In this document: positions 860 to 31,470 of the stretch, in pieces
Layout of the letters: each line of letters starts with the position of its first letter
Position numbering within the stretch: the first letter of the stretch is position 1
From: Aquimarina sp.
Lineage (GTDB): Bacteria; Bacteroidota; Bacteroidia; Flavobacteriales; Flavobacteriaceae
Assembly (NCBI GenBank): GCA_002697475.1
Contig: NZVW01000073.1
Coordinates: 1 to 39,724 of the forward strand
Direction of reading: 5' to 3'
Length of the DNA stretch: 39,724 nt
The notes under the pieces: generated by a model
Seen by the model: only the letters and a program-made list of their open reading frames with translations
What the model was told of the DNA's origin: nothing
Databases searched by the model: none
Position numbers and translations under genes: made by a program

Positions 860-1612
860 ATGAAAGTATTAATTAGTGTAGTATTTATTTTTTTGATGTT
901 TACGGCTTGCGATACCGAGAATGCTTGGGATTGTGCTCAAACTTCAGGTCCGATTATTTCACAGTCCATAGAAGTACCTGATTTTGATAAAATAAGTGTA
1001 TTACAGAGGTCGCAACTTGTAATTAGACAAGGAGTAAAAAATGTTATTATTGAAACCGGAGAAAATTTATTGGAAGATGTAGCTGTTTTTGTTGAAAATG
1101 GGACTTTAATAATCGATAATAAAAATGCCTGCAATTTGATTAGAGACTACGGGGTAACAAAAGTTACAGTAACTACACCAGTACTGACAGAAATTAGAAA
1201 CGCTAGTGGTTTAACAGTTATTGGAGATGGTGCACTAAGTTTTAGTGAATTAACATTGAGATCTGAGGATTTAGAAGAGGAAGATTTATATAGAAAAGTG
1301 GGGGATTTTGATTTGACTTTGGACGTTGATTTTCTAAATATAATTACCAATGGAAAATCAAACTTTTTTTTAGATGGAAGAGTAGATGAAATGGATATTA
1401 ATTTTTTAGACGGGGATAATAGGTGTGAATGTGATTCATTATTATTGAATAGGGCAACAATTTTTCATCGAGGAACTAATGACATTTTTATTGCTCCTAT
1501 TCAGGAAGTCACCGGCGAGTTGAGAAGTACAGGTAATCTAGTTCTGAGTAGTAGACCCATCTCCGTGGATGTTCAGGAATTATATAAGGGGAGAGTAATA
1601 TATAATGATTAA
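860..1612 (+). CDS. DUF2807 / head GIN domain lipoprotein
   Basis: Lipobox FTAC-D. The segments 'VPDFDKISV' and 'IETGENLLEDVAVFVENGTLII' and the beta-helix-like repeats are typical of this Bacteroidota family. Confidence 0.75.
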   Translation: MKVLISVVFIFLMFTACDTENAWDCAQTSGPIISQSIEVPDFDKISVLQRSQLVIRQGVKNVIIETGENLLEDVAVFVENGTLIIDNKNACNLIRDYGVTKVTVTTPVLTEIRNASGLTVIGDGALSFSELTLRSEDLEEEDLYRKVGDFDLTLDVDFLNIITNGKSNFFLDGRVDEMDINFLDGDNRCECDSLLLNRATIFHRGTNDIFIAPIQEVTGELRSTGNLVLSSRPISVDVQELYKGRVIYND

Positions 1613-1624
1613 TAGAGGTTAAAA

Positions 1625-2416
1625 TTACTGCTTATTTAAATTCCAGTCGTATTCTAAATATTCAATGTTGGCATCAATATTTATTTTGGTGTTGGTATAC
1701 TGATTTATATATGCTATAACAGAGTTCGTAGAAGGTGTTTTATAATCTTTCTCATACCACTTAAAAATATGGGACAATTTCACACTAGTTGAAGAGATCC
1801 TATTTTTATCGGAGTTTATAAACTCACTGGCAGCTTCGTCTAACTGTTCGTTAATAGACGTAGGAGTGTAAGCTTTATTCATAAGTTTAGGGCATGAAAT
1901 GGAGGCACAATTAATAGCAAAATGTATTCTAGGCTCGTCCATTTTTCTAAGTACTCCATTCTCAATTCCTCCTAAAGACATGGTTCTGTTACCCACTGGC
2001 ACAATGGCTTTTGTCCAGGCTCCATTTATATCTTTTATACTTTTTACAGGATAATTTTTGATAATAAGGTCTACAGTATAGGCATTATAAAGATTGATAT
2101 AATAGGCTAATAACTCCTGAACCTGCCATTCTTCGTTTGGAGGATTTGAAGATAAAGCAGTTAAATAAGTAGTGAGCTGCTCCTGATCATTTTTAAATCC
2201 TTCGTAATCTACTAACCCATCATCTGATACATGCTTTTGTAATAAATCAGTCCAAAGCTGATGATCAACTTTTGCTGATATATCTTCTTGCAGATTAACC
2301 AGATTTTCAGGGACCTCCTTAACAGGCTGCCCCTGACTGGATATTCCGGCTGCAGTTAAAAGTGCACAGTTTTGAAACAATACTAAAATTCCAATAAAGT
2401 ATAATATTAACCGCAT
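1625..2416 (-). CDS. DUF547 domain lipoprotein
   Basis: Motifs 'LAYYINLYNA', 'EPRIHFAINCASISCP', 'LSHIFKWY' and 'YDWNLN'. The hydrophobic N-terminus ends in LFQNC. Confidence 0.85.
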   Translation of the reverse strand: MRLILYFIGILVLFQNCALLTAAGISSQGQPVKEVPENLVNLQEDISAKVDHQLWTDLLQKHVSDDGLVDYEGFKNDQEQLTTYLTALSSNPPNEEWQVQELLAYYINLYNAYTVDLIIKNYPVKSIKDINGAWTKAIVPVGNRTMSLGGIENGVLRKMDEPRIHFAINCASISCPKLMNKAYTPTSINEQLDEAASEFINSDKNRISSTSVKLSHIFKWYEKDYKTPSTNSVIAYINQYTNTKINIDANIEYLEYDWNLNKQ

Positions 2417-2452
2417 GTTTTTATCTTTTAATTTAGTTTAATGAAAATTTTC

Positions 2453-3421
2453 TTAGCAACACCCACCACCATCATAGTGAAAAGTAGATTCGCTGATAAA
2501 AATATCCTCTCTTCCTAAATCTGATAATGCTTTAGCAGTTTTATCACAAACAGCGATAGGCTGATTTTTTAACAGCACATGTCCCTTTTTATCGTCAAAA
2601 TAATCTTGATCTCCATAATATATTGCGGCTTTACCGGTAAATACACAAGGACCATCCTCTGGCATAGGGTCTTTAATTGCTGCCACCTCTATAGATTCAA
2701 TGTAGATTAGTTCTTCTGTTGGATAATTTTTCGGGTCTAAAATTCTGTATGGCTTTCTTGCTCTGATCTCAATAGTTCCGAAACCTACGTCAGTTAGGGC
2801 TTTTACATAGTCATTGATAGGTAAACTTCCACTTAGGCAAAGTGCTCTTAAACGCTCATCGTTTCTTAAAGTGTCATTCATGGATTGCTCACAAGTAGGA
2901 TCACTCATCACTAGTCTTCCGTGAGGTTTTAGAACTCTATACATTTCTTCGATTGCCTTTTTTAAATCTTCTTCTTTAAAAATGTTGAAAAGACAATTTT
3001 GAGCAGCTACGTCTATGCTGTTGTCATCCACAGGAAGATTCAGTGCGTCTCCATATCTAAGATCAACAAATTCACTATTAAACCAATCATTCTGTGCTTC
3101 TGCCTCTTTGAAATTTTTTCTGGAGGCATCTAACATTTCCTGAACGACATCGACTCCGATGACCCCGTGTTTTTGTCTTGAAAAATAAGAGAATTGCAAT
3201 AGCTCCATTCCTCCGCCGACACCAACATATAGAATTTTAGGATTATTAGTTAAATCTCTGGCATGTACGGTACTACCACAACCATAATTCATTTCCTGCA
3301 TTATCTTTGGGATTTTTAGTCCTGGTAGTTCCCATATAGGGTTGGTGGTGCAGCAAAGACCTACGTCTGGAGTCAAAGCAGCTTCTTTATAAACGTCGTG
3401 TGTAGTATTTAAATAACTCAT
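2453..3421 (-). CDS. arsM: Arsenite S-adenosylmethionine methyltransferase, arsenosugar-biosynthesis type
   Basis: Class I SAM-binding motif LYVGVGGG, ArsM-like cysteines (GLCC, NYGCG, AQNCLFN, ALCLSG), a C-terminal GGGCC, and position in an operon with arsS. Confidence 0.85.
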   Translation of the reverse strand: MSYLNTTHDVYKEAALTPDVGLCCTTNPIWELPGLKIPKIMQEMNYGCGSTVHARDLTNNPKILYVGVGGGMELLQFSYFSRQKHGVIGVDVVQEMLDASRKNFKEAEAQNDWFNSEFVDLRYGDALNLPVDDNSIDVAAQNCLFNIFKEEDLKKAIEEMYRVLKPHGRLVMSDPTCEQSMNDTLRNDERLRALCLSGSLPINDYVKALTDVGFGTIEIRARKPYRILDPKNYPTEELIYIESIEVAAIKDPMPEDGPCVFTGKAAIYYGDQDYFDDKKGHVLLKNQPIAVCDKTAKALSDLGREDIFISESTFHYDGGGCC

Positions 3422-3496
3422 TTTTTAAATTCAGTATTTGTAATGTAGTTAAATATAAACCAGATCTTATTAAAAATGGTGATTAGTTTAACTTTT

Positions 3497-4309
3497 CTAC
3501 ATGGATTTGATTAATTCTCTAAAAAGTGTGATCATCTGTGGCTCAGCCTTATTAGCCATAGCAATGATTTCTTCAATATTTATAGGTTCAAGATTTTCAG
3601 GGTCACATTCGTCAGTTAATACAGAAACCGCAGCTACCGGTAAATCAAGATGATTTGCAACAATAACTTCAGGTACAGTACTCATTCCTACAGCATCTGC
3701 GCCAATAACCTTTAAATATCTATATTCTGCGCGGGTTTCTAATTGAGGGCCTACAACAGATGCGTAAACACCATTGTGCAGTTTTATATTATTATCCTTA
3801 GCTATTTTTTTAAGGGATTCATTAATAGTTTTATCGTAAGGAGCACTCATATCCGTAAAACGACTTCCTAATTGTTCTACTCCTTTAAATGCTAAGGGAG
3901 AACCTCCTTGTAAATTAATATGGTCATCAATGAGCATTAACTCACCTTTATTAAAATCAAGGTTAATGGCACCGGAGGCATTTGATACCAATAAAGTTTT
4001 AACTCCAAGTTTATGCATGATTCTTACGGGGTAAGTTACATCTTGTAAGGTATACCCTTCGTATAGGTGAAACCTACCTTGCATTACAACAACTTTTTTA
4101 CCTTCCAGGTTACCGTAAATAAGCCTTCCTTTATGAAATTCTACTGTTGCAGTAGGAAAGTTAGGGATATGATTATAACTCACCTCTTTAATTACTTCAA
4201 TATGGTCAATTAGCTGGCCTAGCCCGGTTCCTAAAATTATACCTATTTCGGGTTTGTCAAATCCTTTTTCAATAAGATAATCTGTGGTATCTTCAATAAG
4301 TTTAATCAT
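3497..4309 (-). CDS. punA: Purine nucleoside phosphorylase (trimeric, PunA/XapA type)
   Basis: Motifs GIILGTGLG, MQGRFHLYEG, DHINL, GPQLETRAE and GADAVGMSTVPE. Its start overlaps the upstream gene's end by 8 bp. Confidence 0.92.
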   Translation of the reverse strand: MIKLIEDTTDYLIEKGFDKPEIGIILGTGLGQLIDHIEVIKEVSYNHIPNFPTATVEFHKGRLIYGNLEGKKVVVMQGRFHLYEGYTLQDVTYPVRIMHKLGVKTLLVSNASGAINLDFNKGELMLIDDHINLQGGSPLAFKGVEQLGSRFTDMSAPYDKTINESLKKIAKDNNIKLHNGVYASVVGPQLETRAEYRYLKVIGADAVGMSTVPEVIVANHLDLPVAAVSVLTDECDPENLEPINIEEIIAMANKAEPQMITLFRELIKSM

Positions 4310-4919
4310 TGTTTGTATAAAATTTTTTAAATATAATATTGTCTTTTATATCATCATAGGTGTCTATATCATTTCTTTCAGAAAGCAATTCGATTCTATC
4401 GTTTTTTAAATCCTGCAATGTGCTTTTTAAAACGGTATTGGTACCCCAATCTTTATTTTGAAATAATTTTTTGTTTTTCAATGACTTCATGCCCAAAAGA
4501 TAATAGCCACCGTCTTTAGCTGGACCCAGAACAAAATCATTATTTCTCAGGCAATCAAAAGCAGTTTGAATGTCATTGGTTGTCAGGTCGTACATATCGC
4601 TACCAATAACAATGATATTCTCATATTCTGCGTTAAACCCGTCCTGAAATGCATTCAGCATTCTTTCTCCTAAGTCATTTCCTGCTTGGATTTGTTTTTT
4701 ATAGATATGATCGCTCCAAATATCGTTTACGGCAATAGATTCTGAATAATAAACTCTTTTCGAGCAATTGAGATCTTTTGTAATATTTACGGTATGCTGC
4801 AATAAGAATTTATAAATCTCTAATGCAGCATTATCACCTATCGTTTTTCCTAATCTTGTTTTGCACTTACCTAGTTCAGGGTTTCGGGTAAATATGATAA
4901 GTAGGTTTTTATTTTTCAA
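4302..4919 (-). CDS. TIGR04282/DUF2064 family GT-A fold transferase (CofC-like), arsenosugar-associated
   Basis: Motifs 'FTRNPELGKCKTRL', 'QAGNDLGERM', 'IGSD', 'LGPAKDGGYYLLGM' and 'DIDTYDD'. TTG start. Confidence 0.85.
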   Translation of the reverse strand: MKNKNLLIIFTRNPELGKCKTRLGKTIGDNAALEIYKFLLQHTVNITKDLNCSKRVYYSESIAVNDIWSDHIYKKQIQAGNDLGERMLNAFQDGFNAEYENIIVIGSDMYDLTTNDIQTAFDCLRNNDFVLGPAKDGGYYLLGMKSLKNKKLFQNKDWGTNTVLKSTLQDLKNDRIELLSERNDIDTYDDIKDNIIFKKFYTNND

Positions 4920-4921
4920 TA

Positions 4922-5410
4922 TTAATATACTTTAATTCCGTTTTGCACCCACTTGCTCCATTTCTTAGAAAAAGTATGAATGCTATCTGTGATTTTATTA
5001 TTGTTTACAATCTCAAGATTGTGATTTTTCCATTCAAATATTCCTCCGTATAGATTTAAAACATTGGGATAGCCATATTCTTTAATTTTTTCACCAATAT
5101 TTTCTGAACGAATACCAAGACTACAATACACAACAATAGTTGAGGTTCTAGGAATTTTTAGACTATCTAATTTTTGTAATGAAAAGTTGTTATAGCCTAC
5201 ATATTTAGCTTTAGGTATGTGACTAATTTCAAACTCTTCCTTTTCTCTAGCATCTAATATGACCACCGAGTCTTTTATTTTATGAAGATCTGAGATAGTG
5301 ATATAAGGTACGGAGCCTTTATTAAACTTTTCAAGAAGCTTATCTAGGGAATTTTGAGCAATACAAAATTGTCCTGTGATCAGAAATAAAAATAAAAATG
5401 ATTTCATCAT
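4922..5410 (-). CDS. Exported single-domain rhodanese-like protein
   Basis: Motifs 'LDAREKEEFEISHIPKA', active-site loop YCSLGIRS and 'NLYGGIFEW'. Signal peptide ends in CIA-Q. Confidence 0.88.
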   Translation of the reverse strand: MMKSFLFLFLITGQFCIAQNSLDKLLEKFNKGSVPYITISDLHKIKDSVVILDAREKEEFEISHIPKAKYVGYNNFSLQKLDSLKIPRTSTIVVYCSLGIRSENIGEKIKEYGYPNVLNLYGGIFEWKNHNLEIVNNNKITDSIHTFSKKWSKWVQNGIKVY

Positions 5411-5413
5411 TAG

Positions 5414-6481
5414 CTACGCAACAGTTCCCTGACAGCTACTTCCGGCACCGGCCGTACATCCATAACAGTGTTGAGAAATTATGATGTTTCTGTCATTTAA
5501 TATATCTTCATTATATTCGCTTATATGTTTAATCTTGCTGGCTACTTTAAGACCTAGCATTTGATTAAAATCGCAGTCATACAGCCATCCATCCCAGCTT
5601 ACAGAAATAGTGTTGGTACACATAACATTTTCTACTGCTGCAGGATTGTAAGCCTCAACTAATGCATACATATAGTCCTCATAGTTATCAGAAGCGATTA
5701 AATAGTCTAAAAACCTACTGATAGGGAGGTTTGTTATTGCAAAAAGATTATGAAAATGAATTCCGAAATCTTCTAAAAGAGCTTTTTTAAAGTCTTTTTC
5801 CATAGAAGTTTGGTCACCAGGTAAAAACGCACCTGAAGGGTTATATACCAAATCTAATCTTAAGTCGCTATCAGGCATTCCATAACCTCTTTCATTAAGT
5901 TCTTGCAATGCCTTAATGGAAGCGTCAAAAACTCCATTTCCTCTTTGTTTATCTGTTTTTCCTCTTGTCCAATGAGGCATAGATGAAACTACATGAACAT
6001 TATATTTTTTAAAGAAGTCTGGTAGGTCATAGTACTTTTTATTTGCTCTTATAATTGTCAAATTGCTGCGTACAATAAAGTCTTTGATACCTGCTTTGCT
6101 TGCTTCTTCAACAAACCATCTAAAGTTAGGGTTCATCTCAGGAGCTCCTCCGGTTAAATCTAAAGTGTGTGCTCCTGTATTTTTAATGACATCAAGACAC
6201 TGTTGCATCGTTTCTTTAGTCATAATTTCTTTACGATCAGGCCCGGCATCCACGTGACAATGTTCACATACCTGATTACACATATAACCAACATTGATTT
6301 GTAAAATCTCTAACTTTTTAGGTTTTAAAGGCAGTTGCCCGGATTCAGAAATTTTGTCAGCAAATTTTGGAAGTTCCCCGTTTGCGAAGATTCCATTATT
6401 TAAAATTTCCAATTGTCTTTTGGCATCAGCCAATTGATCATTTCTTTTATGTAAGGATTGCTTTTTTTTAATTTCTGACAT
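5414..6481 (-). CDS. arsS: Radical SAM arsenosugar biosynthesis protein (radical SAM / Cys-rich DUF3641), cysteine form
   Basis: CxxxCxxC motif CNQVCEHC, LTGGAPE, and a Cys-rich tail (VMC, YDCDFNQML, HCYGCTAGAGSSC). ATG at 6481 preferred over the TTG at 6493. Confidence 0.9.
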   Translation of the reverse strand: MSEIKKKQSLHKRNDQLADAKRQLEILNNGIFANGELPKFADKISESGQLPLKPKKLEILQINVGYMCNQVCEHCHVDAGPDRKEIMTKETMQQCLDVIKNTGAHTLDLTGGAPEMNPNFRWFVEEASKAGIKDFIVRSNLTIIRANKKYYDLPDFFKKYNVHVVSSMPHWTRGKTDKQRGNGVFDASIKALQELNERGYGMPDSDLRLDLVYNPSGAFLPGDQTSMEKDFKKALLEDFGIHFHNLFAITNLPISRFLDYLIASDNYEDYMYALVEAYNPAAVENVMCTNTISVSWDGWLYDCDFNQMLGLKVASKIKHISEYNEDILNDRNIIISQHCYGCTAGAGSSCQGTVA

Positions 6482-6566
6482 TTTATTGTTCAAATTTTAG
6501 ATTTGGGGTCGATTGTGTTTATTTCTTAATAAACCCATTATGGCAAAGCTGTTAAAGGATACGGAA

Positions 6567-6902
6567 TTACATTTCCAACTTATTTACTTTATTCATCATC
6601 ATGACACCGTGTACCAAGGTAGCACCACTTTTTATAGCAGCACCCACATGTATTGCTTCCATCATTTCTTCTTTAGTTACTCCCCTTTGTAAAGTGTCTT
6701 TAGTATATGCATCAATACAATATGGACATTGTTCTGTATGTGCAACAGCTAAAGCGATAAGAGCTTTTTCTCTTGCTGTCAATGCGCCTTCTTCAAAAAC
6801 TTTTCCGTAATAATCAAAAAACTTTTTACCTAATTCTTCACTCCATTCCGTAATATTCCCAAACTTTCTTAAGTCTGAAGGGTCATAGTATGTTTTAGAC
6901 AT
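6567..6902 (-). CDS. AhpD/carboxymuconolactone-decarboxylase family peroxidase-like protein, arsenosugar-associated
   Basis: CMD motif 'LTAREKALIALAVAHTEQCPYCIDAY' with CxxC. First gene of the arsS operon. Confidence 0.85.
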   Translation of the reverse strand: MSKTYYDPSDLRKFGNITEWSEELGKKFFDYYGKVFEEGALTAREKALIALAVAHTEQCPYCIDAYTKDTLQRGVTKEEMMEAIHVGAAIKSGATLVHGVMMMNKVNKLEM

Positions 6903-7136
6903 ATATACTTTAGATTAATTAATTGTTAGTTCGTCGTATCTTAAATTTCAGCCTTACACAAGAATAAAATAATTTATTATTAAAGTTGAAATATAATAAA
7001 CAATATTTTTAAAGATAAGGTTTTAAACTTAAAATCAAATATTTGTGTAAAACGTATAATTTTTAAAAAATAATGGAGAAAAACCTTAATTTAGACAAAG
7101 AATTGTCTTACAAATTAAGAATTAGAAATAGGGGTT

Positions 7137-8144
7137 ATGAGAAAAAAGGTTACCTTAAAACAACTTGCAAAAGAATTAAATTTATCAATTTCAACTGTTT
7201 CTAAATCATTAAAAAATGATCCTGAGATTAGTCAAAAGACTATTAATAGAGTACACGAGCTTGCTGATTTTTATAATTACAAACCTAATGCCTTAGCGGT
7301 AAGTCTGAAGAGTAGCAGGACTAAAACGATTGGAGTAATATTGCCAGAAATATTAAATCATTTTTTCGCTAAAGCATTATATGGTATAGAAAAAGAAGCT
7401 TCTAATCATGGGTACAAAATTTTAACCTGTATCACTAATGAGTCTTATGACAAGGAGGTGGAGTATGTTGAAATGCTTAATTATAGTAGTGTTGACGGGT
7501 TTATCGTTGCCTTAAGTGAAGAAACCCAGGTGCTTAATAAATTTGACCATTATGCTGCGCTTAAAAGAGATAAGGTGCCCATGGTGATGTTTGACAGAGT
7601 TATTGATGAGATTGACTGCGATAAAGTAATTGTAGACGACGAAAATGCATCTAAGAATGCGGTACAGTATCTTATTGATTCAGGCTGCTCCAAAATAGGT
7701 TTAATTACTACCATAGGGGATTTAAGTGTTGCTAAGCATAGAATTCAAGGAGCTAAAGCTGCGGTAGCAGATAAGGACGTTGAGTTGCACGAATTTAAAT
7801 TGAAAGGAGCATCTCGTGCTGAAGAAGAAATTTTAGCATTTCTAAAGAGTACAGATCTGGATGCCGTTCTGGGACTAGATGAAACTTCAGCTGCAGTAAC
7901 AATAAATAGTTGTCATAGGTTAGGGTATAAAATACCCAAAGATATATCTGTAATTGGTTTTACAGATGGATTGTTGTCTAAGCATTCTTTTCCTAAGCTT
8001 TCTACAGTTTCCCAACATGCTGAAGATCTTGGTGAAAGGGCTGTACAGGTTCTGATTAATAATATAGAAAATGACGATGAGAAGTATGTTCCTAAAACCC
8101 AAATAGTAAAAACATCTTTAATACTTAGAGATTCGACCAATTGA
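7137..8144 (+). CDS. LacI family transcriptional regulator
   Basis: HTH 'VTLKQLAKELNLSISTVSKSL', hinge YKPNALAVSL, and sugar-binding domain motif IPKDISVIGF. Confidence 0.95.
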   Translation: MRKKVTLKQLAKELNLSISTVSKSLKNDPEISQKTINRVHELADFYNYKPNALAVSLKSSRTKTIGVILPEILNHFFAKALYGIEKEASNHGYKILTCITNESYDKEVEYVEMLNYSSVDGFIVALSEETQVLNKFDHYAALKRDKVPMVMFDRVIDEIDCDKVIVDDENASKNAVQYLIDSGCSKIGLITTIGDLSVAKHRIQGAKAAVADKDVELHEFKLKGASRAEEEILAFLKSTDLDAVLGLDETSAAVTINSCHRLGYKIPKDISVIGFTDGLLSKHSFPKLSTVSQHAEDLGERAVQVLINNIENDDEKYVPKTQIVKTSLILRDSTN

Positions 8145-28287: not shown

Positions 28288-31200
28288 ATGTCTGATAAAA
28301 AATACATTATAGCCTTTGATCAGGGCACAACAAGTACCAGAGCAATCATCTTTAACACTGCCGGAGAGATTTGTGGAATTACCCAAAAAGAGTTGGATCA
28401 GATATATCCTAAAAATGGCTGGGTAGAACACAATCCTGAACAAATTTATACCCAACAGCAAGAGGTTTTTGAAAAGGTAATTAAGGAATCAGGGATTGGT
28501 GTGGATAAAATCGCAGCAATAGGCATTACAAATCAACGTGAAACTACAGTCGTTTGGAATAAAAACACTGGCAAACCTATTTATAACGCTATAGTATGGT
28601 TGGATAAAAGAACAAAATCCATCTGTGCCGATCTTAAAAAAAAGGGGTTAGATAATTATATTTCAGAAAATACGGGTCTGGTAATTGACTCCTATTTTTC
28701 AGGAACTAAATTAAAATGGATTCTGGATAATGTGGAAGGAGCCAGAGAGCAGGCAGATAAAGGCGAACTATTATTCGGAACAATTGATACATGGTTGATA
28801 TGGAATTTTACGAATGGGAAAAAACACGTCACAGACCATTCTAACGCATCCAGAACGATGCTGTATAATATCAAGGAGTTACAATGGGATAAGAAATTAT
28901 TAAAGGAATTGGAGATCCCTGTCTCGATGTTGCCACAAGTGCAACCGTCGTCCTCTGATTTTGGAAAAATAAGCATTGAAAATCATGAGATATCCATTTA
29001 TGGAGTTGCCGGTGACCAGCAGGCAGCTTTATTAGGACAGGGAGGCCATAAAAAGGGAATTGCAAAAAACACGTATGGCACAGGATGTTTTATGTTGATG
29101 AATACGGGTAAGAAACGTTATACTTCAAAAAACGGGTTGCTTACGACCTTATGTGCCAGTTTTTCAGACGGTCCTATTCAATACGCTCTGGAAGGTAGTA
29201 TTTTTATAGGGGGTGCTTCTATTCAGTGGCTAAGGGATAAAATGAAAATAATTGATAATGCTTCTGAGACTGAGACTATTTGTCAATCTACAATTTTACC
29301 GGATGATTTATATGTAGTACCGGCTTTTGCAGGTTTAGGGGCTCCATATTGGGATATGGATGCTAAAGGTGCTGTGTACGGACTTACTCTGGATAGCGGT
29401 AAAAATGAAATTGTCAAAGCAACTGTAGATGCTTTAGCGTATCAGACCCGGGATGTGTTAGAGGCTATGACTGAAGATAGTGGACAATTGATGAAGGAGC
29501 TAAAAGTAGATGGCGGAGCGAGTGCTAACAACTATTTGATGCAGTTTCAGGCAGATATCTTAAATGTGGAAGTGGATAGACCTAAGGTTCTTGAGGTAAC
29601 CGCATTTGGAGCTGCTTTACTGGCAGGAATTAAAGCTGGAGTATGGTCTAAGGACGATATAACCTCTGTACGCAGTACAGATATCATATTTAAACCTCAA
29701 ATGAACGAGCATGATAGGTTTAGAAAATATAGAGGTTGGCAGCAAGCTGTGGAGGGTACTAAGACCGATACTATTAATAAGCTGTTTATAAAAGAGGATG
29801 GGTTAGTGCGATTTTCGGTTTTGGATCGCAAAACACAAATCAAACGAGCCAAAAAGAAGAAATATGATCTTGTAGTCATAGGAGGTGGCGTTACAGGAGC
29901 AGGAATAGCTTTAGATGCTGCTTCAAGGGGAATGAAAGTATGCCTGGTAGAAAAGAATGATTTCGCTTCCGGAACCAGTAATAAATCTACTAAATTGATT
30001 CATGGAGGGTTACGGTATTTAAAACAATTTGAAATAGGTTTAGTAAAGGAAACAGGACTTGAACGTGCCATTGTGCATAAGCTGGCCCCTCATTTGGTCA
30101 TTCCTGAAAAGATGTTGTTACCCATTATTGAAGGAGGTAATTATGGAAAATTGATGGCTTCCTTTGGATTAAAGGTCTATGATCTTTTAGCTAATGTTGA
30201 AGATGATGATAGGCGCCGTATGTTAAGTAAGGACGAAACTTTGGATAAAGAACCTTTATTAAATGATGACAATTTATTAGGAGCTGGTTTTTATGCTGAA
30301 TATCGTACAGATGATGCAAGGTTGACTATTGAATTGTTAAAAAAGGCAAACGAATATGGTGCTAACTGTATTAATTATTGTGAGATGAAATCTTTTGTAT
30401 ATAATGATAAAGGCAAAATTGAAAACTTACTTTGTTTAGACCATAATACTGGCGAGGAATTTACCATAACTTCCAGAAATTTTGTTTCTGCAGCAGGACC
30501 CTGGGTTGACGTTTTGAGAGAACAAGATCGCTCAATGAATAAAAAACATTTGCATCTCACTAAGGGTGTCCATATCGTGTTTTCCAGAGAGCGTTTTCCA
30601 CTATCACAATCTATTTACTTTGATGTAGCCGACGGTAGAATGGTTTTTGCAATACCTCGTGGTAGGAGCACCTATGTAGGAACTACGGATACTAATTATA
30701 ATGCTGACCTTAATCGTGTCGTAGCTACGAAGGAAGATGCCATGTATCTTCTCAATGCTGTAAACCATATGTTTCCGGAAATAAAACTTACGATACACGA
30801 TATAGAGTCCAATTGGGCAGGACTACGACCTTTAATTCACGAGGATGGGAAATCTCCATCTGAATTATCCAGAAAAGATGAAATTTTTCAGTCAAAAAGT
30901 GGTCTGATATCGATAGCCGGAGGTAAGTTGACGGGGTATCGTAAAATGTCTCAACGGGTAATCGACGTGGTGCTAAAGACCATGAATAGTAAAAGAAGAG
31001 AAAAGTTTAAGACTTCTGTGACTAAAACCTTACCACTAGCCAGTGAAGCTTTGATTGATGATGAAGGAATAAAACAGTATAAAAAAGATGTATCTGATAG
31101 ATTAAAAAGTAAAGGTGTTGAAGATAAATTCCATGCGGATTATCTTGTGGCAAACTATGGGACGCAAACAGAGTTTATTTTGAATAAGATCAACTATTTT

Positions 31201-31470
31201 CTGAATGATGATATCGAGGAAAGATTGATTCGATCAGAGTTATGGTATACCGTTAATTACGAAATGGTAAACGGGTTATCTGACTTTTTTGTCAGAAGAA
31301 CTGGGAGGTTATATTTTTACATCGATAGCGTACAAAAATATAGAAATATCATAGAAAAAGACTTTATCAAATATTTAGGTTGGGACGTAAAAAGACTAAA
31401 TCACGAAAATGAATATCTGGATATGCTGCTTAAAGATGCAACTACCTATTATGAGAGTGAATTTGTTTAG
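28288..31470 (+). CDS. glpK-glpD: Fused glycerol kinase / FAD-dependent glycerol-3-phosphate dehydrogenase (GlpK-GlpD)
   Basis: The N-terminal half has DQGTTSTR, GITNQRET, YFSGTK, GDQQAAL, KNTYGTG and DGGA. The C-terminal half has GGGVTGAG, GTSNKSTKLIHGGLRYL, DDARL, WAGLRPL and GGKLTGYR. The 1060-aa frame is uninterrupted. Confidence 0.93.
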   Translation: MSDKKYIIAFDQGTTSTRAIIFNTAGEICGITQKELDQIYPKNGWVEHNPEQIYTQQQEVFEKVIKESGIGVDKIAAIGITNQRETTVVWNKNTGKPIYNAIVWLDKRTKSICADLKKKGLDNYISENTGLVIDSYFSGTKLKWILDNVEGAREQADKGELLFGTIDTWLIWNFTNGKKHVTDHSNASRTMLYNIKELQWDKKLLKELEIPVSMLPQVQPSSSDFGKISIENHEISIYGVAGDQQAALLGQGGHKKGIAKNTYGTGCFMLMNTGKKRYTSKNGLLTTLCASFSDGPIQYALEGSIFIGGASIQWLRDKMKIIDNASETETICQSTILPDDLYVVPAFAGLGAPYWDMDAKGAVYGLTLDSGKNEIVKATVDALAYQTRDVLEAMTEDSGQLMKELKVDGGASANNYLMQFQADILNVEVDRPKVLEVTAFGAALLAGIKAGVWSKDDITSVRSTDIIFKPQMNEHDRFRKYRGWQQAVEGTKTDTINKLFIKEDGLVRFSVLDRKTQIKRAKKKKYDLVVIGGGVTGAGIALDAASRGMKVCLVEKNDFASGTSNKSTKLIHGGLRYLKQFEIGLVKETGLERAIVHKLAPHLVIPEKMLLPIIEGGNYGKLMASFGLKVYDLLANVEDDDRRRMLSKDETLDKEPLLNDDNLLGAGFYAEYRTDDARLTIELLKKANEYGANCINYCEMKSFVYNDKGKIENLLCLDHNTGEEFTITSRNFVSAAGPWVDVLREQDRSMNKKHLHLTKGVHIVFSRERFPLSQSIYFDVADGRMVFAIPRGRSTYVGTTDTNYNADLNRVVATKEDAMYLLNAVNHMFPEIKLTIHDIESNWAGLRPLIHEDGKSPSELSRKDEIFQSKSGLISIAGGKLTGYRKMSQRVIDVVLKTMNSKRREKFKTSVTKTLPLASEALIDDEGIKQYKKDVSDRLKSKGVEDKFHADYLVANYGTQTEFILNKINYFLNDDIEERLIRSELWYTVNYEMVNGLSDFFVRRTGRLYFYIDSVQKYRNIIEKDFIKYLGWDVKRLNHENEYLDMLLKDATTYYESEFV

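What the first reader, a model, noticed from the sequence alone, without database searches (positions are those of the whole stretch)
2453..6902. Arsenosugar operon whose PNP and CofC-like transferase could supply the steps after ArsS
Seen: arsM and arsS flank a TIGR04282/DUF2064 gene that overlaps a purine nucleoside phosphorylase gene by 8 bp. Established: ArsM methylates arsenite, and ArsS uses SAM to make 5'-deoxy-5'-dimethylarsinoyl-adenosine. To my knowledge, removal of the adenine and glycoside formation are not well assigned. Inference: the PNP phosphorolyses this As-nucleoside to dimethylarsinoyl-ribose-1-phosphate, and the CofC-like GT-A protein either activates it with an NTP or transfers it to an acceptor. 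The PNP reads 'VLTDEC' where inosine/guanosine PNPs typically have 'TN'. Asp at this position is known to favour 6-amino (adenine) substrates, which fits the proposal.
Basis: partly seen in the sequence, partly recalled or inferred. Interest (0 to 1): 0.82.

Follow-up and report, generated by a model that had tools for sequence, protein, structure and literature searches.

The report
Arsenosugar cluster's candidate adenine-removing phosphorylase
A marine flavobacterium carries a known type of arsenic-sugar gene cluster that includes a nucleoside phosphorylase, and unrelated bacteria fill the same gene slot with a different phosphorylase (MTAP), so this enzyme likely performs the step, unassigned in the papers searched, that removes adenine from the arsenic nucleoside.

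Summary
The cluster is real: ahpD-like, arsS, rhodanese, TIGR04282, PNP, arsM, DUF547, all on the minus strand, with the 8-bp overlap. Asp233 is the human Asn243 position, but it also occurs in 30 of 30 lpxK-linked housekeeping PNPs. Better evidence supports the proposal. The enzyme lacks the 5'-OH-binding His257 (0 of 76 cluster copies have it). In a genus where arsS is patchy, this PNP type occurs in exactly the 7 of 111 genomes with arsS. Proteobacterial plasmid clusters and 13 of 80 metagenomic arsS loci carry a true MTAP (23-26% identical) in the same slot; no hydrolase was found there. TIGR04282 folds like CofC/FbiD nucleotidyltransferases and keeps their three-Asp motif. Likely route: DDMAA to arsenoribose-1-phosphate, to NDP-sugar, to beta-riboside via TIGR04283. 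Against: the same PNP clade persists in genomes without arsS, most arsS loci elsewhere lack a linked phosphorylase, and clearing 5'-deoxyadenosine explains much of the pattern. No activity is shown.

The parts
6567..6902 (-). AhpD-like CxxC protein (TIGR04169, arsenosugar-associated peroxidase-like)
   Evidence: 192.5 bits, cut-off 120; C59/C62
5414..6493 (-). ArsS radical SAM enzyme (TIGR04167), CxxxCxxC at 72/76/79
   Evidence: (436.5/300)
4922..5410 (-). Rhodanese-homology protein (NF045521), hydrophobic N-terminus, role unknown
   Evidence: 194/145
4302..4919 (-). TIGR04282/DUF2064 CofC-like protein; invariant D108, D184, D186; predicted nucleotidyltransferase
3497..4309 (-). Trimeric-type nucleoside phosphorylase: E191 (=Glu201), D233 (=Asn243), I245 (=His257), L190 (=Phe200); start overlaps the TIGR04282 stop by 8 bp
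2453..3421 (-). ArsM arsenite methyltransferase, arsenosugar type (NF038099)
   Evidence: 578.3/400
1625..2416 (-). DUF547 protein, 36 bp after arsM; recurrent member of arsS clusters
   Evidence: (31 of 56 well-flanked loci)

Best explanation
This is a known-type arsenosugar gene cluster whose embedded nucleoside phosphorylase likely removes adenine from the ArsS product DDMAA to give 5-deoxy-5-dimethylarsinoyl-ribose-1-phosphate, which TIGR04282 is predicted to activate with an NTP and a TIGR04283 glycosyltransferase would then transfer to an acceptor. Shown here: gene content, linkage, active-site residues, fold, and replacement by MTAP in other phyla. Taken from papers on other organisms: ArsM methylates arsenic and ArsS makes DDMAA. 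Inferred: all three later steps. The stereochemistry is consistent: beta-nucleoside to alpha-1-phosphate, then an alpha-NDP-sugar, then an inverting GT2 (recalled) giving the beta-ribosides found in nature. The enzyme probably comes from a housekeeping MTAP-like lineage and may still clear 5'-deoxyadenosine, MTA and adenosine. My odds: about 0.7 for the phosphorolysis step and about 0.45 for TIGR04282 making an NDP-arsenoribose.
For: (1) Convergent replacement. TIGR01694-grade MTAPs, 23-26% identical to this PNP, lie in arsS clusters on plasmids of Acinetobacter portensis, Burkholderia thailandensis, B. glumae and Cupriavidus KK10 (4 of 7 plasmid loci viewed); in the last three they directly adjoin the TIGR04283/TIGR04282 pair. 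They also occur in 13 of 80 metagenomic arsS loci (10 of 74 distinct), as often as arsM (13 of 80); single-query searches found no MTAN, DeoD or trimeric PNP there. (2) Active site. His257, which binds the ribose 5'-OH (PMC12648331), is absent in 76 of 76 cluster-linked copies and present in 27 of 30 lpxK-linked copies. Asn-to-Asp at this position makes K. lactis PNP prefer adenosine (PMC5074518). (3) Co-occurrence. In genus g18, arsS is in 7 of 111 genomes; those 7 carry this PNP type within 9 kb, none of the other 104 do, and 4 of the 7 keep a second PNP. The PNP lies within 9 kb of arsS in 36 of 56 well-flanked named loci, against 32 of 56 for arsM. TIGR04282 ends within 150 bp upstream of it in 38 of 46 loci, and stays beside it in 5 of 5 split clusters checked. 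(4) TIGR04282. After its own family's structure 3CGX, the nearest folds are CofC/FbiD, then IspD, KdsB and sugar-1-phosphate nucleotidyltransferases; the first glycosyltransferase listed is rank 43. D108/D184/D186 are invariant in 59 of 59 and match the FbiD three-Asp motif that holds a substrate phosphate through two Mg ions. (5) The genome has a separate DeoD and SAH hydrolase.
Against: The Asp is lineage-wide. The His-less type is not confined to arsenic genomes: it is in 13 of 18 arsS-positive but also 19 of 91 arsS-negative Bacteroidia genomes. Seven unlinked sequences sit in the same supported clade, in unrelated neighbourhoods, and 4 of 5 such genomes tested lack TIGR04282. Its sister group is a housekeeping gene at yggS-divIVA-ileS. 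In 0 of 40 arsS-positive genomes of other classes is the best PNP match within 10 kb of arsS; 67 of 80 metagenomic loci (29 of 36 at 10 kb or longer) and 3 of 7 plasmid loci show no phosphorylase. Two arsS-positive genomes (G325, G376) have only the His-type PNP, and Fibrella has MTANs but no trimeric PNP. In 23 of 24 genomes of this genus it is the only trimeric PNP, and no MTAN or MTAP was found in the 5 genomes scanned, so a clean-up role is needed anyway. It keeps Glu201, unlike MTAP. Arsenosugar production by flavobacteria was not found in the papers searched.
Confidence: 0.6

Rival explanations
1. By-product clean-up only: the phosphorylase clears 5'-deoxyadenosine, MTA and adenosine to keep ArsS and ArsM active, and DDMAA is processed by other enzymes.
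For: MTAP clears 5'-deoxyadenosine in S. elongatus (PMC8102628). No MTAN or MTAP was found in 5 genomes scanned. The clade persists without arsS. NucPNP in the nucleocidin cluster acts on MTA and adenosine (PMC8694150 abstract). His loss and MTAP replacement fit this reading too.
Against: The gene follows TIGR04282 rather than arsS when clusters split (5 of 5). No MTAN hydrolase, which would also clear by-products, was found in 80 metagenomic loci. TIGR04282 has a phosphate-binding motif that needs a phosphorylated substrate. ArsS adenosylation is redox-neutral and consumes the radical (PMC13598754).
Confidence: 0.2
2. The PNP step is right, but TIGR04282 activates a three-carbon phospho-acceptor (as CofC does with PEP or 3-phosphoglycerate), or itself transfers the sugar from the 1-phosphate, rather than making an NDP-arsenoribose.
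For: Its closest characterised folds act on three-carbon phospho-acids (PMC6450877). Glycerol and phosphate arsenosugars are known (PMC10456119). NCBIfam names it a glycosyltransferase.
Against: The GT2 partner would still need an activated sugar donor (recalled family chemistry). The gene is tightly coupled to the enzyme that would make a sugar-1-phosphate.
Confidence: 0.15
3. Arsenolysis: the PNP uses arsenate in place of phosphate and so helps thiols reduce As(V) to As(III), feeding ArsM.
For: PNP reduces arsenate in vitro (review passage, PMC12608789). No acr3 was found in 4 genomes of the genus.
Against: Any PNP would do, so it does not explain His loss or the choice of MTAP. LMWPc-family (ArsC-like or phosphatase) genes are present in 5 of 5 genomes. 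The same review says in vivo relevance is unknown.
Confidence: 0.05

Closest known systems
ArsM/ArsS arsenosugar pathway (Synechocystis; ArsS biochemistry Cheng et al. 2021, seen only through reviews) and the NCBIfam gene set TIGR04167, NF038099, TIGR04169, TIGR04282, TIGR04283
   Same: Four of the five set members in the window exceed their cut-offs; ArsS makes DDMAA.
   Different: Adds an embedded, overlapping phosphorylase gene that NCBIfam treats as an ordinary PNP; TIGR04283 is not in this window (partial hit at the end of contig C152).
Trimeric PNPs: Spirosoma linguale 4LNA, Planctomyces limnophilus 4M1E, B. fragilis 8SWT, human PNP
   Same: Same fold (TM 0.96 to 4LNA); 4LNA and 4M1E share Asp, Leu at Phe200 and no His257.
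   Different: Human PNP has Asn243 and His257; 8SWT has Asp but keeps the His. No paper naming 4LNA was found.
5'-methylthioadenosine phosphorylase (MTAP, TIGR01694)
   Same: Same superfamily, Asp at the base-binding position, no 5'-OH His; fills the same slot in proteobacterial arsS clusters.
   Different: This protein scores 100.7 against a cut-off of 274.85, is 23-26% identical, has TDEC instead of TD[YF]D, and keeps Glu201.
CofC/FbiD guanylyltransferases (2I5E, 6BWH, 7P97)
   Same: Nearest characterised fold of TIGR04282; three-Asp motif kept.
   Different: 13-16% identity; TIGR03552 score 35.8 against cut-off 105; no F420 context; substrate unknown.

Membership tests
NCBIfam arsenosugar gene set | ArsS TIGR04167 over cut-off with CxxxCxxC | tested here: met
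   436.5 vs 300; C72/C76/C79
NCBIfam arsenosugar gene set | ArsM NF038099, TIGR04169 and TIGR04282 over cut-off | tested here: met
   578.3/400, 192.5/120, 216.3/134
NCBIfam arsenosugar gene set | TIGR04283 glycosyltransferase in the genome | tested here: inconclusive
   Partial hit, 113 bits vs 182, at the end of contig C152 of a 55% complete genome; full copies in 4 of 4 relatives, 3 of them about 4 kb from the PNP
NCBIfam arsenosugar gene set | Arsenosugar production by the organism | not testable with these tools
   Needs HPLC-ICP-MS
Inosine/guanosine-specific PNP I (TIGR01700) | HMM cut-off | tested here: met
   295.8 vs 293.35, marginal
Inosine/guanosine-specific PNP I (TIGR01700) | Asn at position 243 | tested here: not met
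   D233
Inosine/guanosine-specific PNP I (TIGR01700) | His257 binding the 5'-OH | tested here: not met
   I245 aligns with residue 257 of the human H257F chain 2A0X
Inosine/guanosine-specific PNP I (TIGR01700) | Glu at position 201 | tested here: met
   E191
MTAP (TIGR01694) | HMM cut-off | tested here: not met
   100.7 vs 274.85
MTAP (TIGR01694) | TD[YF]D motif as in cluster-borne MTAPs | tested here: not met
   TDEC here; TD[YF]D in 13 of 13 metagenomic MTAPs
MTAP (TIGR01694) | Phosphorolysis of 5'-substituted adenosines | not testable with these tools
   Enzyme assay needed
CofC/FbiD guanylyltransferase | HMM cut-off TIGR03552 | tested here: not met
   35.8 vs 105
CofC/FbiD guanylyltransferase | Three-Asp Mg/phosphate-binding motif and fold | tested here: met
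   D108/D184/D186 invariant in 59 of 59; aligned to 2I5E by a weak profile match, E 0.13; Foldseek ranks 2-5, E about 5e-8
GT-A glycosyltransferase (NCBIfam name of TIGR04282) | Closest structural neighbours are glycosyltransferases | tested here: not met
   First listed glycosyltransferase at rank 43, behind many nucleotidyltransferases; fold alone cannot exclude the activity

The most novel reading that the evidence does not exclude
The complete bacterial arsenosugar route is ArsM, ArsS, a 5'-substituted-adenosine phosphorylase (recruited separately as a His-less PNP in Bacteroidia and as MTAP in Proteobacteria), TIGR04282 as an NDP-arsenoribose synthase and TIGR04283 as the beta-riboside transferase. 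It would run through an arsenic-bearing nucleotide sugar that I found described nowhere, and marine heterotrophic flavobacteria would be widespread producers.
Probability: 0.35. Interest if true: 0.82.

Novelty: new variant of a known kind. Interest (0 to 1): 0.6.

Why it matters
Arsenosugars are major arsenic species of marine algae and seafood, and only the first two enzymes appear assigned in the papers searched. This gives a three-enzyme in vitro test for the rest of the route with named candidates. It suggests that the NCBIfam label 'glycosyltransferase' for TIGR04282 and the label 'inosine/guanosine-specific' for this PNP are both wrong. The cluster is in 24 of 24 genomes of this genus and many other marine Flavobacteriaceae, which would make them unrecognised arsenosugar producers.

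Tried and rejected
The Asp as an arsenic-specific mark: rejected. The His-less PNP as exclusive to arsS genomes: rejected at class level. The PNP as a member of the MTAP family: rejected. Promoter/terminator scan of 1500-7200: 21 promoter-like sites against 24.9 in shuffles and no terminator, so uninformative. RNA runs: at most 6% of words shared, only short contig pieces, no evidence on expression or co-transcription. A second structural search of TIGR04282 by VIA-align did not run because the machine was busy. The tree is the quick version (SH-aLRT only); the careful search did not finish. No complex was predicted, since no binding is claimed. Literature: nine searches found no paper assigning adenine removal or glycoside formation to a gene, or linking PNP, MTAP or TIGR04282 to these steps. 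Most subscription papers are not held: Xue et al. 2019 was not held and Cheng et al. 2021 was seen only as a citation, so such an assignment may exist there or in their supplements.
Full report
Observation. Seven genes lie on the minus strand from 6902 to 1625: AhpD-like TIGR04169, arsS, a rhodanese-homology gene, TIGR04282, the PNP, arsM and DUF547. The gaps are 73, 3, 2, -8, 75 and 36 bp. The overlap reads ATGATTAA. The best named arsS relatives are marine Flavobacteriaceae. The genome is 55% complete. It holds a DeoD-type PNP on contig C18, an SAH hydrolase and a cut TIGR04283 at the end of contig C152.

What is established. Review passages state that ArsS adenosylates DMA(III) to DDMAA (PMC13598754) and that the adenine 'can then be removed', naming no enzyme in that passage (bioRxiv 10.64898/2026.04.29.721666). 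One proposed algal route invokes a nucleosidase (PMC10456119). Nine searches found no gene assignment for the later steps; the primary ArsS papers were not available.

The Asp clue. D233 aligns with human Asn243, E191 with Glu201, L190 with Phe200 and I245 with position 257. Asn-to-Asp at this site turns K. lactis PNP into an adenosine-preferring enzyme (kcat/KM 2.2e6 against not detected; PMC5074518), so adenine acceptance is likely. Among 147 distinct PNPs from fetched loci, the Asp is in 76 of 76 cluster-linked, 30 of 30 lpxK-linked and 36 of 41 other copies. It is also in B. fragilis 8SWT. It therefore says nothing about dedication to arsenic.

A better clue. His257 binds the ribose 5'-OH (PMC12648331), a group that DDMAA lacks. 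It is present in 0 of 76 cluster-linked, 27 of 30 lpxK-linked and 18 of 41 other copies. The groups are uneven: cluster copies are mostly Flavobacteriaceae, lpxK copies mostly one genus, and one 'cluster' copy (L017) comes from a genome where arsS was not found. The predicted structure (pLDDT 93.7) is closest to 4LNA, which shares the Asp and the missing His.

Linkage. All 24 other genomes of the genus have the PNP 1.5-3.7 kb from arsS, and in 23 it is the only match. Of 80 named arsS loci, 48 hold the PNP; of the 56 with at least 5 kb upstream and 6 kb downstream, 36 do, against 32 for arsM. I picked 5 genomes from the 20 well-flanked loci without it; in all 5 the PNP sits beside TIGR04282 elsewhere. 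In genus g18 (it groups with named Flavobacterium), 7 of 111 genomes have arsS. The same 7 have a PNP of 59-71% identity within 9 kb; the best match in the other 104 is 51%; 4 of the 7 keep a second PNP. These 7 need not be independent gains. Three named arsS-positive Flavobacterium genomes each have a lpxK-linked copy and an arsS-linked copy.

Limits of the linkage. In a class-wide draw of 109 genomes (own genome and one unpublished genome left out), a PNP favouring the His-less profile by more than 20 bits was in 13 of 18 arsS-positive and 19 of 91 arsS-negative genomes; at 0 bits 15 of 18 and 27 of 91, at 50 bits 10 of 18 and 7 of 91. About a dozen of these genomes were in the training alignments, and kin are not independent. 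The 28 cluster-linked sequences in the tree form one clade (SH-aLRT 98) with 7 unlinked ones, beside a clade at yggS-divIVA-ileS (quick tree). The unlinked copies lie next to dnaG, panD, tsaB-like or hipA genes, and 4 of 5 such genomes lack TIGR04282. In other classes of the phylum, 0 of 40 arsS-positive genomes have their best PNP match within 10 kb of arsS; weaker second matches were not all listed. I infer that the His-less Asp enzyme is an old housekeeping type, drawn into the cluster where the resident PNP is His-type.

Convergent replacement. Of 53 plasmid records with arsS (48 Burkholderia) I viewed 7. Four carry an MTAP over the TIGR01694 cut-off or annotated as such: A. portensis, B. 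thailandensis, B. glumae and Cupriavidus KK10. In Cupriavidus the order is arsS, TVP38/FAD, TIGR04283, TIGR04282, MTAP; in Burkholderia it is MTAP, TIGR04283, TIGR04282. Hymenobacter, Pseudanabaena and Thiodictyon show none within 9 kb, in an incomplete gene table. In 80 metagenomic loci found with the Cupriavidus arsS, 13 hold MTAP (7 of 36 at 10 kb or longer; 10 of 74 distinct), mostly adjoining arsS or TIGR04282; arsM is in 13 of 80. One query each for MTAN, DeoD and trimeric PNPs hit none. Nine of the 13 were scanned: 7 pass the cut-off and 2 fall just below it on trimmed sequences; the span in L280 holds a stop that I did not resolve. These MTAPs are 23-26% identical to the window's PNP, so two distant phosphorylase lineages occupy one slot. 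This is the strongest evidence for a functional tie to a 5'-modified adenosine.

TIGR04282. The model is confident (pLDDT 96.3). After 3CGX come CofC/FbiD (ranks 2-5), IspD, KdsB, glucose-1-phosphate cytidylyltransferase and GlmU; mannosylglycerate synthase is rank 43. D108, D184 and D186 are invariant in 59 of 59 and match the FbiD motif D116/D188/D190 that anchors a substrate phosphate (PMC6450877). An N-terminal K[TS]RL is kept in 50 of 50 closer sequences and lost in 9 divergent paralogues. A nucleotidyltransferase acting on a phosphate monoester fits best; which one is open.

Mechanism. ArsM and ArsS make DDMAA (established elsewhere). The phosphorylase likely gives adenine and the alpha-1-phosphate, TIGR04282 is predicted to form an NDP-sugar, and TIGR04283 (GT2, inverting; recalled) would give the beta-riboside; natural arsenosugars are beta-D-ribofuranosides and these phosphorylases give alpha-ribose-1-phosphate (abstract of PMC7226091). 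In cyanobacteria a resident MTAP could supply the step; it cleaves 5'-deoxyadenosine in S. elongatus (PMC8102628). The same fact supports the main rival, by-product clean-up, which sequence cannot exclude and which may coexist.

Papers seen. Passages: PMC13598754, 10.64898/2026.04.29.721666, 10.1101/2024.02.01.577332, PMC5074518, PMC12648331, PMC6450877, PMC8102628, PMC10456119, PMC12608789, PMC12159101. Abstract: PMC8694150; start of abstract: PMC7226091. Not seen: Xue 2019, Cheng 2021. No supplements were read.

Verdict. A common, catalogued cluster type with a well-supported but untested candidate for an open step. Earlier notes of this scan made the same proposal on other DNA and supplied the His257 and lineage-wide Asp leads, which I tested. 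Interest 0.6.

Noticed in passing
window 28288-31470 (+): One 1060-aa ORF fuses an FGGY kinase (glycerol-kinase-like) to a DAO/glycerol-3-phosphate oxidase-like domain.
   Followed up: no
window 7137-27311: Two convergent LacI regulators, an alpha-amylase-family hydrolase, SusC/SusD and three tandem 1100-aa FG-GAP/ASPIC proteins: a polysaccharide utilisation locus unrelated to the arsenic genes.
   Followed up: no
L080:10060-10734, L083:1042-1722, L085:7808-8500 and others: A divergent TIGR04282 paralogue next to arsS/ahpD keeps the three Asp but has lost the N-terminal KTRL motif (9 of 59 sequences).
   Followed up: partly
L241 (G141:C32:20000-37000): PNP-TIGR04282-rhodanese-DUF547 module in a genome where arsS was not found at E 1e-60.
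   Followed up: partly
L240 (G149:C11, about 532400-534000): Two tandem His-less PNP genes, one with Asp and one with Asn at the base-binding position, in an arsS-negative genome.
   Followed up: no
L060, L061, L090, L115, L252, L254: Extended arsS clusters recurrently add an FAD oxidoreductase, a membrane 4Fe-4S protein, a large GT2 and a GH113 gene.
   Followed up: partly
L258, L259, L262 (plasmids): Whole arsS clusters lie on plasmids, next to transposases in Burkholderia, with ccdA/thioredoxin, a sigma factor and a YiiX-like hydrolase.
   Followed up: partly
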